Source: Candidatus Iainarchaeum sp.
Lineage (GTDB): Archaea; Iainarchaeota; Iainarchaeia; Iainarchaeales; GCA-2688035
Reading direction: 5' to 3'
Assembly: GCA_028713935.1 (NCBI GenBank)
Contig: JAQTNI010000015.1
Span: forward strand, 1 to 27,941
DNA: 27,941 bases
Under the pieces are notes generated by a model. The model did not search any database. It worked only from the letters and a program-made list of their open reading frames with translations, and had not been told where the DNA came from. Both the position numbers and the translations under genes were made by a program. Of this stretch, positions 12,806 through 14,062 are shown piece after piece (positions within the stretch are counted from its first letter, which is position 1; each line of letters opens with the position of its first letter).

Positions 12806-14062
12806 ATGGCTCTTGCTGATTTTGAAAAGATTTTTGCTGATTTTACTCTTTCCAAGCAGGACAGGGAAACTTTGAACAGTATTATGGCCAGTTCCAGTGG
12901 CAGGGAAAGGCCTTCTGTTTTTTATTCGCTCACTCACCTGAAGCACAATTATATCACTTTTACGCATCTTTTCAACCTTGCTCGTTTTTCCCAGGCAGGC
13001 TGCAATATTGTCATTGCGCTCTGGGATATGAATATTCTTTCCAGCCCTTATTTCAAAAAAATCGAGTTTGAGAAATACGGGAACCAGACAACTGATGAAT
13101 ACATTAAGCAGAAAAAGGATGAAATTTTGCGCCTTGCCGCTTCGCTTGGAATTGAAAATGTCAAGGTTTACACTTCTTCCGAAATATGGGCAAGGTTTAC
13201 CCAACAGAGGGAGCCCCACCTGTTCACTAAATATTATTCTGTGCTTTCAACAATTGACCTTGATGACTCGGAGCTTAATGACAAATTGAGTTATCTTCTC
13301 CAGTTGCCTGCTGACATTTTTTTTGCAAATTTTTTCCACGTGCTTTATCCTGAGGATTTCAGGAAGCCGATTGAAATTGCTTATTCCGCGCCAAGAAGAA
13401 AAAATCTTTATTTTGTAACAAGAAAAGCAATGTACAACAGCGGCCTTATCAGCATGGAAAGCCCAGTGATTGTTGTTTCAAAGGAAATTCCGCGAATTGA
13501 AATTGACACTCAAATTCCGCACTGGGACATGTCTCTTGGAGAAATAAGCAGCATTGTTTCAAAATGGCAGTTTTCACATGAAGAAATGCAGGACCTTTAC
13601 AGGAATGTGATTGGAAATGTTTTGAAGGAAGTTGAATTTGTTTCTGCTGCAGGCACAAAAAAAATGAGGCCTGAAAAATTTGCAGAGCTTGTTCCAAGCC
13701 TTTCAAGGGAAGACCTTGTTGCTTCCGCTTCAAAAAACATTTTCAGTTTTTTCCAGGGTGCCAAGGAGCTTACAAAAATAGTGGAAGCTCCAAAACCGGA
13801 TTTTGTCAATGTCAGGACAAAAAAAGAGGCTCTTCAGCTTGGCGCTGTACTGAAAAGCAACAACGCAATGAGAATTCTTGTCCTTGCCAATGGCACAAGG
13901 ACTATTTCCCAGATTGCAAAGGAAATCAATATGCAGCTTTCAAACACAAGCCAGTACATTGCAAGGCTGAGGAAGCTTGGCCTTGTCGCAGTCCGCGACA
14001 AAAAGGTTTTCAGGTCTGCAAGGGGAATAAAAATTAATTTTGAATCTTCGCTTAAACCGTGA
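12806..14062 (+). CDS. Degenerate TyrRS-like (class Ic aminoacyl-tRNA synthetase catalytic-core-like) domain lacking HIGH and KMSKS, fused to a C-terminal ArsR-like winged HTH
   Basis: The ORF itself is solid at 418 aa. Five blocks are collinear with the M. jannaschii TyrRS sequence as I remember it:
- SQAGCNIVIALWDMNI vs QNAGFDIIILLADLHA
- YLLQLPADI vs YPIMQVNDI
- IEIAYSAPRRKNLYFVTRK vs VDVAVGGMEQRKIHMLARE
- DMSLGEISSIV vs DDSPEEIRAKI
- RPEKFAE vs RPEKFGG

Spacing between blocks is similar in the two proteins. The C-terminus MRILVLANGTRTISQIAKEINMQLSNTSQYIARLRKLGLV is a typical wHTH. The functional call is tentative. Confidence 0.5.
   Translation: MALADFEKIFADFTLSKQDRETLNSIMASSSGRERPSVFYSLTHLKHNYITFTHLFNLARFSQAGCNIVIALWDMNILSSPYFKKIEFEKYGNQTTDEYIKQKKDEILRLAASLGIENVKVYTSSEIWARFTQQREPHLFTKYYSVLSTIDLDDSELNDKLSYLLQLPADIFFANFFHVLYPEDFRKPIEIAYSAPRRKNLYFVTRKAMYNSGLISMESPVIVVSKEIPRIEIDTQIPHWDMSLGEISSIVSKWQFSHEEMQDLYRNVIGNVLKEVEFVSAAGTKKMRPEKFAELVPSLSREDLVASASKNIFSFFQGAKELTKIVEAPKPDFVNVRTKKEALQLGAVLKSNNAMRILVLANGTRTISQIAKEINMQLSNTSQYIARLRKLGLVAVRDKKVFRSARGIKINFESSLKP

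What the first reader, a model, noticed from the sequence alone, without database searches (positions are those of the whole stretch)
12806..14062. Catalytically dead TyrRS-like domain fused to a winged HTH, divergently transcribed from the radical-SAM/kinase gene
**Evidence for TyrRS-like homology.** The first roughly 330 residues align collinearly with archaeal TyrRS (M. jannaschii sequence from memory) at five blocks with comparable spacing:
- SQAGCNIVIALWDMNI vs QNAGFDIIILLADLHA
- YLLQLPADI vs YPIMQVNDI
- IEIAYSAPRRKNLYFVTRK vs VDVAVGGMEQRKIHMLARE
- DMSLGEISSIV vs DDSPEEIRAKI
- RPEKFAE vs RPEKFGG

**Evidence that it is inactive.** Both class I signatures are gone. The HIGH position reads LKHNY and the KMSSS position reads IDTQI.

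**DNA-binding domain.** The C-terminal roughly 70 aa form an ArsR-like wHTH (ISQIAKEINMQLSNTSQYIARLRKLGLV).

**Interpretation.** An aaRS-derived ligand-binding pseudoenzyme attached to a DNA-binding domain, sharing a 73-nt bidirectional promoter with the radical-SAM-kinase gene, looks like a small-molecule-sensing transcription factor for that gene. The ligand could be an amino acid or an adenylate. I am not aware of this architecture being described.
Basis: partly seen in the sequence, partly recalled or inferred. Interest (0 to 1): 0.7.

Follow-up and report, generated by a model that had tools for sequence, protein, structure and literature searches.

The report
Inactive tyrosyl-tRNA synthetase turned gene regulator
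A small uncultured archaeon (Iainarchaeota, DPANN) has a gene in which a copy of the enzyme that loads tyrosine onto tRNA has lost its catalytic motifs and is fused to a DNA-binding domain; it most likely switches the neighbouring radical-SAM/kinase gene, and I found no earlier description of this domain combination.

Summary
Window 12806-14062 (+) encodes a 418-aa protein. Residues ~36-325 are a tyrosyl-tRNA-synthetase (TyrRS) fold, and residues ~339-412 are an ArsR-type winged helix (wHTH).

**Fold evidence**
- AlphaFold2 with 87 homologues gave pLDDT 94.4.
- All top 50 Foldseek hits in PDB are TyrRS (best E 1.9e-11).
- Profile-profile hhalign against TyrRS gave 91% probability, E 9.5e-7, collinear over 265 columns.
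- HIGH and KMSKS are absent in all 87 full-length members aligned.
- No member-level Pfam scan reported the TyrRS family. Sequence searches of PDB chains (target and 12-sequence profile) found only wHTH regulators.

- Block 5 (RPEKF) is a chance match.
- The register of block 2 is unresolved.

**Context**
- An exhaustive search found 131 representative sequences.
- All 7 close loci are divergently paired with the same MoaA-like radical-SAM/kinase fusion.
- 4 of 6 distant lineages examined also sit next to radical-SAM, CYTH and/or nucleotide-kinase genes.
- The spacer has a conserved ~36-bp core. It holds a 14-bp palindrome (ATAAyA-NN-TGTTAT; window 12767-12780) that recurs upstream of the gene, including one lineage only 27% identical.

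**Reading**
The best reading is a dimeric one-component transcription regulator whose sensor is a TyrRS-derived pseudoenzyme. DNA binding, ligand and target are inferred, not shown. Tyrosine or ATP as the ligand looks unlikely.

The parts
12806..14062 (+). Whole gene: 418-aa TyrRS-like pseudoenzyme fused to a wHTH (stop TGA 14060-14062)
   Evidence: ORF list. Identical NCBI protein of 418 aa. 131 family representatives found.
12806..12910 (+). aa 1-35: N-terminal two-helix extension, as in archaeal TyrRS. This is the least conserved part.
   Evidence: AF2 secondary structure shows helices H3-10 and H17-29. Mean top-residue frequency 0.19.
12911..13534 (+). aa 36-243: Rossmann-fold remnant of the TyrRS catalytic domain, with five parallel strands at aa 37-42, 67-72, 119-123, 191-194 and 221-224
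   Evidence: AF2 model, Foldseek and hhalign.
12956..12967 (+). aa 51-54, TFTH: the position that aligns with the HIGH signature (Mj H42-L-G-H45). The motif is lost.
   Evidence: hhalign register. Family columns show no HIGH in any member.
13022..13033 (+). aa 73-76, WDMN: aligns with TyrRS ADLH. D74 is the only residue invariant in all 87 members and matches invariant TyrRS D68.
13478..13534 (+). aa 225-243, SKEIPRIEIDTQIPHWDMS: loop in place of the KMSKS loop. It is 7 residues shorter, with no KMSKS, but has conserved prolines P229 and P238.
   Evidence: hhalign gap opposite MSSSKGN. Conservation analysis.
13535..13780 (+). aa 244-325: helical domain with a hairpin, equivalent to the C-terminal (anticodon-binding) domain of archaeal TyrRS. 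The anticodon-contact residues are not conserved.
   Evidence: hhalign to Mj 217-306. Family alignment A1.
13820..14041 (+). aa 339-412: ArsR-type winged helix-turn-helix. It is very basic (aa 339-418: pI 11.4, net charge +12).
   Evidence: Pfam HTH_5 28 bits against cut-off 22. 78 of 87 members hit HTH_5. AF2 H-H-H-strand-strand topology. Charge calculation.
12733..12805 (.). 73-nt AT-rich divergent spacer between the radical-SAM/kinase gene and the TyrRS-like gene
12761..12796 (.). Conserved core of the spacer (TTTTTAATAATAATTGTTATAAAAATTATGTAAGTT). It probably holds both TATA-like elements and the operator.
   Evidence: Alignment of 5 loci. Identity in 40-nt windows is 0.73-0.74, against 0.53-0.55 at the left end of the spacer.
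12767..12780 (.). Candidate operator: imperfect 14-bp palindrome ATAATA-AT-TGTTAT (consensus ATAAyA-NN-TGTTAT)
   Evidence: Found in 8 of 12 upstream spacers at 2 mismatches or fewer. It is perfect in the distant locus L014. All six sites with 1 mismatch or fewer in 137 kb lie in these spacers. Shuffles give a mean of 0.41 spacers, maximum 3. It is not significant within the window alone.
11242..12732 (-). Divergent partner gene: 496-aa fusion of a MoaA-like radical-SAM domain (CX3CX2C at aa 35, CX2CX5C at aa 268) and a P-loop nucleotide kinase (GLTYSGKT at aa 320)
   Evidence: Pfam and NCBIfam, PADLOC, motif search, homologue search.

Best explanation
The gene most likely encodes a one-component transcription regulator.

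**Proposed anatomy**
- The body (aa ~36-325) descends from an archaeal-type TyrRS. It has lost every element needed for adenylation and tRNA charging.
- It has kept the fold and a small set of conserved polar residues where the active-site crevice was.
- It probably still dimerises as TyrRS does.
- This would present two strongly basic C-terminal ArsR-type winged helices to a palindromic site (window 12767-12780). That site lies between the two TATA-like elements of the 73-nt spacer.

**Proposed action**
- Binding there would control both its own promoter and that of the divergent MoaA-like radical-SAM/kinase gene. In most relatives the radical-SAM gene is followed by a CYTH gene.
- The remnant pocket would bind a small molecule that modulates DNA binding. 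I expect a metabolite or nucleotide linked to the radical-SAM/kinase/CYTH pathway rather than tyrosine or ATP.

**Shown:** fold, motif loss, wHTH, conserved synteny, conserved spacer core with a palindrome.
**Inferred:** dimerisation, DNA binding, target, repression or activation, existence and identity of a ligand.
For: **Fold and homology.** AF2 pLDDT 94.4, pTM 0.88. All top 50 Foldseek PDB hits are TyrRS, best E 1.9e-11. BFVD ranks TyrRS, then TrpRS, then CDPS. hhalign gives 91.3%, E 9.5e-7.

**Loss of catalysis.** No HIGH or KMSKS in 87 members. No PF00579 hit was reported.

**Constraint on the old active site.** Among 77 diverse members the conserved polar residues are Y49 (88%), D74 (100%), S125 (92%) and D170 (84%). 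These lie at the N-terminus of the helix that replaces the HIGH helix, just after strand 2, just after strand 3, and on the helix that aligns with the Tyr-binding helix.

**DNA-binding module.** HTH_5 scores above Pfam's cut-off. 78 of 87 members hit it. It has pI 11.4 and charge +12, against pI 6.4 for the body.

**Synteny.**
- All 7 close-clade loci have the divergent radical-SAM/kinase fusion.
- The fusion has only 8 full-length close homologues plus one 272-aa fragment. For the five longest contigs, the longest-contig sizes match those of the TyrRS-like clade.
- Distant members (17-30% identity) neighbour a MoaA-like radical-SAM plus a CYTH-like gene (L012). Others neighbour a Tmk-like kinase plus MoaA-like radical-SAM (L014), or a B12-radical-SAM plus CYTH with or without Tmk (L007, L010).

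**Operator.** The spacer has a conserved core. The 14-bp palindrome is enriched about 56-fold in the upstream spacers and is perfect in L014, whose protein is only 27% identical.
Against: - No experiment exists. DNA binding and regulation are inferred from domain type and gene order.
- The palindrome was defined post hoc from these same spacers. Six of them are related loci, the sequence is AT-rich, and the site overlaps probable TATA boxes. Conservation could therefore reflect promoters alone. Within the window alone the pattern is not significant.
- Residues that bind ribose or ATP and the tyrosine hydroxyl in TyrRS are not retained. A ligand pocket is therefore plausible but unproven.
- In L007 the gene overlaps the next gene (a B12-radical-SAM) in one operon. 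That pattern is more typical of a pathway subunit.
- Two distant lineages (L008, L013) show no radical-SAM neighbour in the DNA available.
- wHTH domains can also bind RNA or proteins.
Confidence: 0.55

Rival explanations
1. It is an RNA-directed accessory subunit. The TyrRS-like body still docks a tRNA or another RNA and recruits or guides the radical-SAM/kinase/CYTH enzymes (with U32 hydroxylase and methyltransferase in some loci) to modify it. The wHTH then serves as an RNA- or protein-binding module rather than a transcription factor.
For: - The whole TyrRS architecture is retained, including the C-terminal domain.
- The gene overlaps a B12-radical-SAM gene in the same operon in L007.
- The L001 operon adds a U32 peptidase-family protein and a methyltransferase. 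By general knowledge these families include RNA-modifying enzymes.
- wHTH domains bind RNA in some systems (established knowledge: SelB, La).
Against: - Anticodon-contact positions of MjTyrRS (F261, H283, D286) are not conserved even within the close clade.
- The TyrRS-like body is slightly acidic (pI 6.4). All the positive charge is in the wHTH.
- The wHTH scores as ArsR/MarR/TrmB-type DNA binders.
- Divergent orientation with a conserved palindromic spacer is the classic regulator layout.
Confidence: 0.15
2. It regulates or senses for an antiviral nucleotide-modifying module. This is a special case of the best explanation. The MoaA/viperin-like radical-SAM plus nucleotide kinase plus CYTH genes would make a modified nucleotide for defence, and the TyrRS-like wHTH would switch them on in response to an infection cue.
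For: - PADLOC: the window radical-SAM/kinase hits pVip (87 and 81 bits), the pVip-kinase fusion model (47 bits) and the kinase part of the anti-phage dCTP deaminase (49 bits; NCBIfam E 2e-10).
- The L007 B12-radical-SAM and Tmk hit the candidate system PDC-M51A/B and viperin-associated kinase VakA.
- The wHTH resembles Csa3/CasR wHTHs.
Against: - The radical-SAM half scores much higher with MoaA models (181 bits) than with viperin (78 bits). The viperin hits cover only the generic radical-SAM core.
- The window neighbourhood is housekeeping: pyrimidine and nucleotide metabolism, KsgA, HtpX. It is not a defence island.
- PDC-M51 is only a candidate system.
Confidence: 0.12
3. It is an enzyme with a new activity built on the class Ic fold. 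An example would be an aminoacyl-tRNA-using transferase like the cyclodipeptide synthases, which also lack HIGH and KMSKS. The wHTH would be an add-on.
For: - Conserved polar residues persist at the old active site: Y49, D74, S125, D170.
- CDPS are a precedent for ATP-independent catalysis on this fold (PMC9437257).
Against: - Foldseek ranks CDPS far below TyrRS (E 5e-2 against 7e-11).
- The family keeps the C-terminal domain that CDPS lack.
- The fixed fusion to a highly basic ArsR-type wHTH in essentially all full-length members points to nucleic-acid binding as the output.
Confidence: 0.06
4. It is a regulator without a ligand. The TyrRS remnant is only a dimerisation scaffold, and the conserved residues are structural.
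For: The ATP-, ribose- and tyrosine-binding residues are all lost. TyrRS is an obligate dimer (established knowledge), which is all a wHTH regulator needs.
Against: A 290-aa scaffold conserved across 131 sequence clusters, with an invariant Asp and conserved Ser, Tyr and Asp at strand ends, is more than dimerisation usually requires.
Confidence: 0.1

Closest known systems
Archaeal/eukaryotic-type tyrosyl-tRNA synthetase (e.g. M. jannaschii 1J1U, A. fulgidus 2CYB; Pfam PF00579)
   Same: - Same overall fold and domain order: N-terminal helix, five-stranded Rossmann domain with CP1 helices, then a C-terminal helical domain.
- Collinear profile alignment over 265 columns.
- Retained: the Asp of ADLHA (D74), the Ser after strand 3 (S125), and the HxxxR-like YxxxR after strand 4.
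   Different: - No HIGH and no KMSKS; the KMSKS loop is 7 residues shorter.
- GGxEQ is lost.
- The Tyr-OH ligands and the anticodon contacts are not conserved.
- About 12-14% identity, below Pfam detection.
- An extra C-terminal wHTH.
BirA (biotin protein ligase/repressor)
   Same: An aaRS-related ligand-binding domain fused to a wHTH, acting as a dimeric repressor. This is established knowledge and the closest functional analogy.
   Different: BirA has the class II-like fold, is catalytically active, has its wHTH at the N-terminus, and uses its own adenylate product as corepressor. Here the fold is class I, the catalytic motifs are gone, and the wHTH is C-terminal.
NadR (HTH + NMN adenylyltransferase + ribosylnicotinamide kinase)
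   Same: An HTH regulator containing a HIGH-superfamily nucleotidyltransferase Rossmann domain, the same superfamily as class I aaRS (established knowledge).
   Different: NadR keeps its HxGH motif and its activity, and it is not derived from an aaRS.
HisZ and the HisRS-like domain of GCN2
   Same: Catalytically dead aaRS paralogues reused as sensors. HisZ senses histidine and GCN2 senses uncharged tRNA (established knowledge).
   Different: Both have the class II fold. Their outputs are an enzyme complex or a protein kinase, not a DNA-binding domain.
Cyclodipeptide synthases; inactive half of trypanosomatid double-length TyrRS
   Same: Class Ic folds that lack functional HIGH/KMSKS (PMC9437257).
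   Different: CDPS lack the C-terminal domain and are enzymes; they are only a weak structural match here. The Leishmania pseudo-dimer half still belongs to an active synthetase.
Csa3 / CasR (CARF-wHTH regulators)
   Same: A Rossmann-like ligand sensor followed by a C-terminal wHTH. The wHTH is the best NCBIfam/PADLOC match for this protein's C-terminus.
   Different: The sensor is a CARF domain, not an aaRS fold. The scores are far below those families' cut-offs (25 bits against 60).

Membership tests
Tyrosyl-tRNA synthetase (class Ic aaRS, PF00579) | TyrRS-type Rossmann catalytic fold plus C-terminal domain | tested here: met
   All top 50 Foldseek hits are TyrRS, E down to 1.9e-11, TM (normalised by target) up to 0.69. 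hhalign gives 91.3%, E 9.5e-7.
Tyrosyl-tRNA synthetase (class Ic aaRS, PF00579) | HIGH signature | tested here: not met
   The aligned position reads TFTH. No member of 87 has HIGH.
Tyrosyl-tRNA synthetase (class Ic aaRS, PF00579) | KMSKS signature | tested here: not met
   The loop is shortened by 7 residues, with no KMSKS-like sequence in any member.
Tyrosyl-tRNA synthetase (class Ic aaRS, PF00579) | Score above the Pfam gathering threshold | tested here: not met
   No PF00579 hit for the target even at E<=1. It is not among the 25 most frequent families over the 87 members.
Tyrosyl-tRNA synthetase (class Ic aaRS, PF00579) | Tyrosine-binding residues (Mj Y32, Y151, Q155, D158, Q173) | tested here: inconclusive
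The hhalign register gives F39, Q166, D170, F173 and R198.
Tyrosyl-tRNA synthetase (class Ic aaRS, PF00579) | Anticodon-recognition residues (Mj F261, H283, D286) | tested here: not met
   The aligned positions vary even among homologues 55-63% identical.
ArsR/SmtB-type winged HTH (PF01022) | HTH_5 domain above the gathering threshold | tested here: met
   28 bits against a cut-off of 22, at aa 359-395. 78 of 87 members hit it at E<=1.
ArsR/SmtB-type winged HTH (PF01022) | Metal-sensing sites of ArsR/SmtB metalloregulators | not tested
   NCBIfam HTH_metalloreg scores only 21 bits against a cut-off of 55. The domain here is a bare wHTH of about 70 aa.
One-component transcription regulator (sensor + DNA-binding domain) | Sequence-specific DNA binding at a target promoter | not testable with these tools
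   There is only a candidate operator, the conserved palindrome at 12767-12780.
One-component transcription regulator (sensor + DNA-binding domain) | Conserved linkage to a putative target gene | tested here: met
   7 of 7 close loci and 4 of 6 distant lineages examined.
One-component transcription regulator (sensor + DNA-binding domain) | Ligand-binding sensor domain | tested here: inconclusive
   Conserved polar residues lie at the former active site, but the known TyrRS ligand contacts are lost.
Cyclodipeptide synthase | Closest structural relatives are CDPS, with no C-terminal domain | tested here: not met
   CDPS is rank 10 in BFVD at E 5e-2. The C-terminal domain is present.

The most novel reading that the evidence does not exclude
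A whole family of archaeal transcription factors uses a fossil tyrosyl-tRNA synthetase as its sensor. It reads either a product of the linked MoaA-like radical-SAM/kinase/CYTH pathway (an unknown modified nucleotide, possibly antiviral like viperin products) or the state of a tRNA or aminoacyl species. The logic would be like GCN2 or HisZ, but wired directly to DNA. This would be the first class I aaRS-derived sensor domain in a transcription factor, and a handle on an uncharacterised nucleotide-modifying pathway in DPANN archaea.
Probability: 0.2. Interest if true: 0.8.

Novelty: new variant of a known kind. Interest (0 to 1): 0.62.

Why it matters
- **aaRS evolution.** Known aaRS paralogues are enzymes or regulatory subunits. 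A class I synthetase fold fixed as the input domain of a DNA-binding regulator would be a new fate for this ancient fold. It would be a class I counterpart to BirA.
- **A named family.** It turns an unannotated family into something testable. The family has 131 representatives at 50% identity, no Pfam model covers its first 330 residues, and databases call it only 'wHTH protein'.
- **A linked gene set.** It flags a conserved, uncharacterised group of genes: a MoaA-like radical-SAM, a nucleotide kinase and a CYTH protein. Their chemistry is unknown and resembles candidate antiviral nucleotide-modifying systems.
- **Concrete reagents.** A 14-bp candidate operator and a high-confidence model give direct starting points for experiments.

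Tried and rejected
- **Plain sequence searches for TyrRS similarity found nothing** (Pfam, NCBIfam, PDB phmmer/hmmsearch). Only profile-profile and structure comparison see it.
- **hhalign against MjTyrRS alone was weak** (32.7%, E 4.6e-4). It needed a TyrRS profile.
- **The first AF2 run with 12 close homologues was mediocre** (pLDDT 71.9). It was superseded by the 87-sequence run.
- **The search for related loci with the diverse alignment A2 failed**, because no stretch was conserved enough. The single genome-contig scan with A1 found only 2 loci. A broad genome-level co-occurrence survey and the search for a canonical tyrS in the same genome could therefore not be done.
- **Cluster look-up gave almost no taxon names**.
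- **The upstream 397-aa gene in L013 is not a paralogue**.
- **No CYTH or U32 gene was found in the window** by tblastn.
- **The palindrome is not significant within the window alone** (2 hits against 1.24 expected).
- **The simple inverted-repeat finder gave only AT-rich short palindromes**.
- **Seven literature searches found no description of this architecture**.
- **Rejected readings:** a divergent but active TyrRS (both signature motifs absent family-wide), and a chance similarity (E 1e-6 to 1e-11 by two independent methods).
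Full report
**1. 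What is at the coordinates**

- Window 12806-14062 (+) is an intact ORF of 418 aa, from ATG to TGA. An alternative TTG start lies at 12797.
- The ORF is identical to an NCBI protein named only 'MAG: winged helix-turn-helix domain-containing protein [Candidatus ainarchaeum sp.]', on a contig of exactly the window's length.
- The named relatives are Iainarchaeota, which belong to the DPANN archaea.
- On the opposite strand a 496-aa gene starts at 12732. This leaves a 73-nt spacer that is 82% A+T.

**2. The wHTH**

- Pfam finds only an ArsR-type HTH_5 at aa 359-395: 28 bits against a gathering score of 22. Weaker hits to MarR, TrmB, IclR and related models overlap it.
- PDB sequence searches with the protein or with a family profile return only wHTH regulators.
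- The C-terminal 80 residues have pI 11.4 and net charge +12. Residues 1-325 have pI 6.4.

**3. The TyrRS-like body**

Sequence-to-profile methods do not see it. Two independent routes do.

- *Profile-profile comparison.*
  - An alignment of 87 full-length family members (A2) was compared with a 17-sequence TyrRS profile built around MjTyrRS. I checked that my recalled MjTyrRS sequence is identical to 1J1U chain A.
  - The result was 91.3% probability, E 9.5e-7, 265 aligned columns. It runs collinearly from just before strand 1 to the end of the TyrRS C-terminal domain. A local re-run gave 86.4%, E 4.7e-6.
  - Against MjTyrRS alone the result was only 32.7%, E 4.6e-4.
- *Structure prediction.*
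  - AlphaFold2 without templates gave pLDDT 71.9 with 12 homologues. With 87 homologues it gave pLDDT 94.4 and pTM 0.88.
  - Foldseek of the better model against PDB returned TyrRS for all 50 top hits. The best were A. fulgidus 2CYB at E 1.9e-11, then M. jannaschii, human, yeast, Plasmodium and N. equitans. TM normalised by target length was 0.54-0.69 over about 350 columns.
  - Against viral models the order was TyrRS (7e-11), TrpRS (1e-6), then cyclodipeptide synthase (5e-2).
- The fold claim is therefore confirmed. The nearest relatives are archaeal/eukaryotic-type TyrRS, with the C-terminal domain included.

**4.

- In the hhalign register, HIGH (Mj H42-L-G-H45) faces T51-F52-T53-H54.
- KMSSS falls at Q236 plus a 7-residue deletion.
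- None of the 87 members has anything like HIGH or KMSKS. The family instead has its own motifs: S-x-T-x-x-T-P-N-Y, W-D-x-N, Q-x-x-x-D-x-F, and P-x8-P-x8-P.
- The ribose-binding GGxEQ faces SAPRR. The Tyr-OH ligands Y32 and D158 face F39 and F173. Y151 and Q155 face Q166 and D170.
- Block 5 (RPEKFAE against RPEKFGG) is a coincidence.
  - It is not conserved even in homologues 60% identical.
  - It lies on a predicted helix, about 13 residues from the hairpin that aligns with Mj RPEKF.
  - The anticodon contacts H283 and D286 are likewise not conserved.

**5. Size and constraint of the family**

- The word-indexed search found 12 sequences at 54-100% identity, counting the window protein itself.
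- The exhaustive profile search found 131 representatives at 50% clustering: 92 below 1e-10, and most 380-430 aa.
- 78 of the 87 full-length members hit HTH_5, so the fusion is fixed.
- Across the target plus 76 distant members the most conserved residues are D74 (100%), S125 (92%), Y49 (88%), D170 (84%), W128 and several prolines. Within the wHTH they are G363, L388, I370 and S382.
- D74 and S125 sit immediately after strands 2 and 3. Y49 starts the helix that replaces the HIGH helix. D170 is on the helix aligned with the Tyr-binding helix.
- In Rossmann folds these strand ends form the ligand crevice (established knowledge). The old active site is therefore still under selection. This is indirect evidence for a pocket, not proof.

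**6. Gene neighbourhood**

- *The partner gene* (11242-12732, minus strand).
  - It is a radical-SAM domain with CX3CX2C at aa 35 and a second CX2CX5C at aa 268. It is fused to a P-loop kinase with GLTYSGKT at aa 320.
  - It is closest to MoaA: TIGR02668 scores 181 bits, below the cut-off of 325, and true MoaA proteins are 30-35% identical over the first 56% of the protein.
  - It shows weaker similarity to prokaryotic viperins and to the kinase part of an anti-phage dCTP deaminase.
- *The close clade.*
  - All seven loci show the same divergent pair with spacers of 73-168 nt. The loci are the window, L001/L002, L003/L004, L005, L006 and L015, plus the 8.8-kb contig, which is inferred only from matching contig size.
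  - The fusion has only 8 full-length close homologues and one fragment in 5.8 billion sequences. For the five longest contigs, their longest-contig sizes match those of the TyrRS-like clade.
  - A cyaB-type CYTH gene (102 bits against a cut-off of 58) follows the fusion in L001, L003, L005 and L006. It is absent from the window.
- *Distant members* (17-30% identity).
  - L012 has a divergent MoaA-like radical-SAM plus a CYTH-like gene.
  - L014 has a divergent Tmk-like kinase, then a MoaA-like radical-SAM.
  - L007 is co-directional with, and overlaps, a B12-radical-SAM gene. That gene is followed by CYTH, a GreA-like gene and thymidylate kinase.
  - L010 has a convergent CYTH plus B12-radical-SAM.
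  - L008 and L013 show no such neighbour in the DNA available.

**7. The spacer**

- Five close loci share a core, TTTAATAA-yaaT-TGTTATA-N-AAT-N2-TATAAGTT (window 12761-12796).
  - In 40-nt windows its pairwise identity is 0.73-0.74, against 0.53-0.55 at the left end of the spacer.
  - That equals the top 5-10% of windows in the flanking coding DNA.
- The most widely shared 7-mer among 12 upstream spacers is TTGTTAT, present in 8 of 12.
- It is half of a 14-bp palindrome, ATAACA-NN-TGTTAT.
  - The palindrome is perfect in L014, whose protein is 27% identical to the target.
  - It has 1 mismatch in the window (12767-12780), L003, L005, L006 and L015, and 2 mismatches in L001 and L007.
  - In 137 kb of window plus loci there are 22 sites with 2 mismatches or fewer, and 8 of them fall in the 1.4 kb of spacers.
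  - All six sites with 1 mismatch or fewer are in the spacers.
  - Mononucleotide shuffles of the spacers give a mean of 0.41 spacers with a site, maximum 3, against 8 observed.
- *Caveats.*
  - The pattern was derived from these same spacers.
  - Six of the spacers are related.
  - The region is AT-rich and overlaps probable TATA boxes.
  - Within the window alone the pattern is not significant.
- The site lies 26-39 nt upstream of the TyrRS-like ATG and 35-48 nt upstream of the radical-SAM ATG, between two TATA-like runs. That is where a repressor could block both promoters (inference).

**8. Interpretation**

- The best-supported reading is a dimeric one-component transcription regulator. 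Its input domain is a TyrRS-derived pseudoenzyme, and its output is an ArsR-type wHTH acting on the divergent promoter (confidence about 0.55).
- Ligand sensing is plausible. The ligand is unlikely to be tyrosine, ATP or Tyr-AMP. A metabolite of the linked nucleotide-modifying genes is a better guess.
- The rivals are:
  - an RNA- or tRNA-directed accessory subunit of the radical-SAM pathway;
  - a regulator of a viperin-like defence module (a special case of the best reading);
  - a new enzyme on the class Ic fold;
  - a ligand-free dimerisation scaffold.

**9. Comparison with known systems**

- The protein works like BirA, NadR or Csa3: a ligand-binding Rossmann-type domain plus an HTH.
- Like HisZ and the HisRS-like domain of GCN2, it reuses a dead aaRS as a sensor.
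- It is not a member of the TyrRS family by that family's defining motifs or by Pfam score. It is a member of the ArsR-type wHTH family by score.
- A 2022 review of aaRS duplications and aaRS-like proteins lists TyrZ, the trypanosomatid pseudo-dimer and CDPS for the Tyr/Trp branch, and nothing like this (PMC9437257).
- Six further full-text searches found no description.

**10. Verdict**

- Novelty: a new variant of a known kind, namely a one-component regulator with an unprecedented class I aaRS-derived sensor domain.
- Interest is about 0.6.

Noticed in passing
window 14892-16388 (minus strand); stop at 15306-15308: The AMP-phosphorylase-like gene (Glycos_trans_3N + Glycos_transf_3, with a C-terminal piece) is split by one in-frame TGA (...AEKS*KIAGILLEMSG...). 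TGA is a normal stop elsewhere in the window, so this is a pseudogene, a sequencing error or a genuine split.
   Followed up: partly
window, 25 main ORFs: Stop-codon usage is 13 TGA, 12 TAA and 0 TAG. The absence of TAG may be chance at 40% GC and was not examined further.
   Followed up: no
window 11242-12732 (minus strand): The partner gene is itself unusual. It is a MoaA paralogue below the MoaA cut-off, with a second Cys cluster, fused to a P-loop nucleotide kinase. It has only 8 full-length close homologues and one fragment, with weak matches to viperin, viperin-kinase and anti-phage dCTP-deaminase kinase models. Substrate and product are unknown.
   Followed up: partly
L001 651-5920 (minus strand); also L003, L005, L006: In relatives the radical-SAM/kinase gene heads a longer operon. 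It continues with a cyaB-type CYTH gene, a 139-aa ORF, a U32 peptidase-family protein, a 304-aa ORF, a methyltransferase and a second CYTH gene. The window lacks CYTH and U32 altogether.
   Followed up: partly
L007 6254-9200 (+): A distant family member is followed in one operon by a B12-radical-SAM, CYTH, a GreA-like protein and thymidylate kinase. The radical-SAM and kinase match the PADLOC candidate defence system PDC-M51A/B and viperin-associated kinase VakA. A bacterial-type GreA-like gene is odd for an archaeal contig.
   Followed up: no
window 14040-14891 (+): The KsgA/Dim1-type rRNA dimethylase gene probably starts at ATG 14067, 4 nt after the stop of the TyrRS-like gene. The two may be co-transcribed here. 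This neighbour is not conserved in other loci.
   Followed up: no
L001 8012-9446; L003 6563-9289; L008 3039-4417: A KaiC/RadA-like ATPase (248-249 aa) recurs near the gene, also in a lineage only ~24% identical (L008). A V4R-domain protein accompanies it in L003 and L008, and an undecaprenyl-diphosphate-synthase-like gene in L001 and L003. This may be conserved DPANN gene order or a further functional link.
   Followed up: no
window 16790-27921: The downstream half of the window is a run of pyrimidine and nucleotide-metabolism genes: OMP decarboxylase, a phosphoribosyltransferase, a dihydroorotase-like amidohydrolase and the carbamoyl-phosphate synthase large chain. This is a nucleotide-metabolism setting rather than a defence island.
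   Followed up: no
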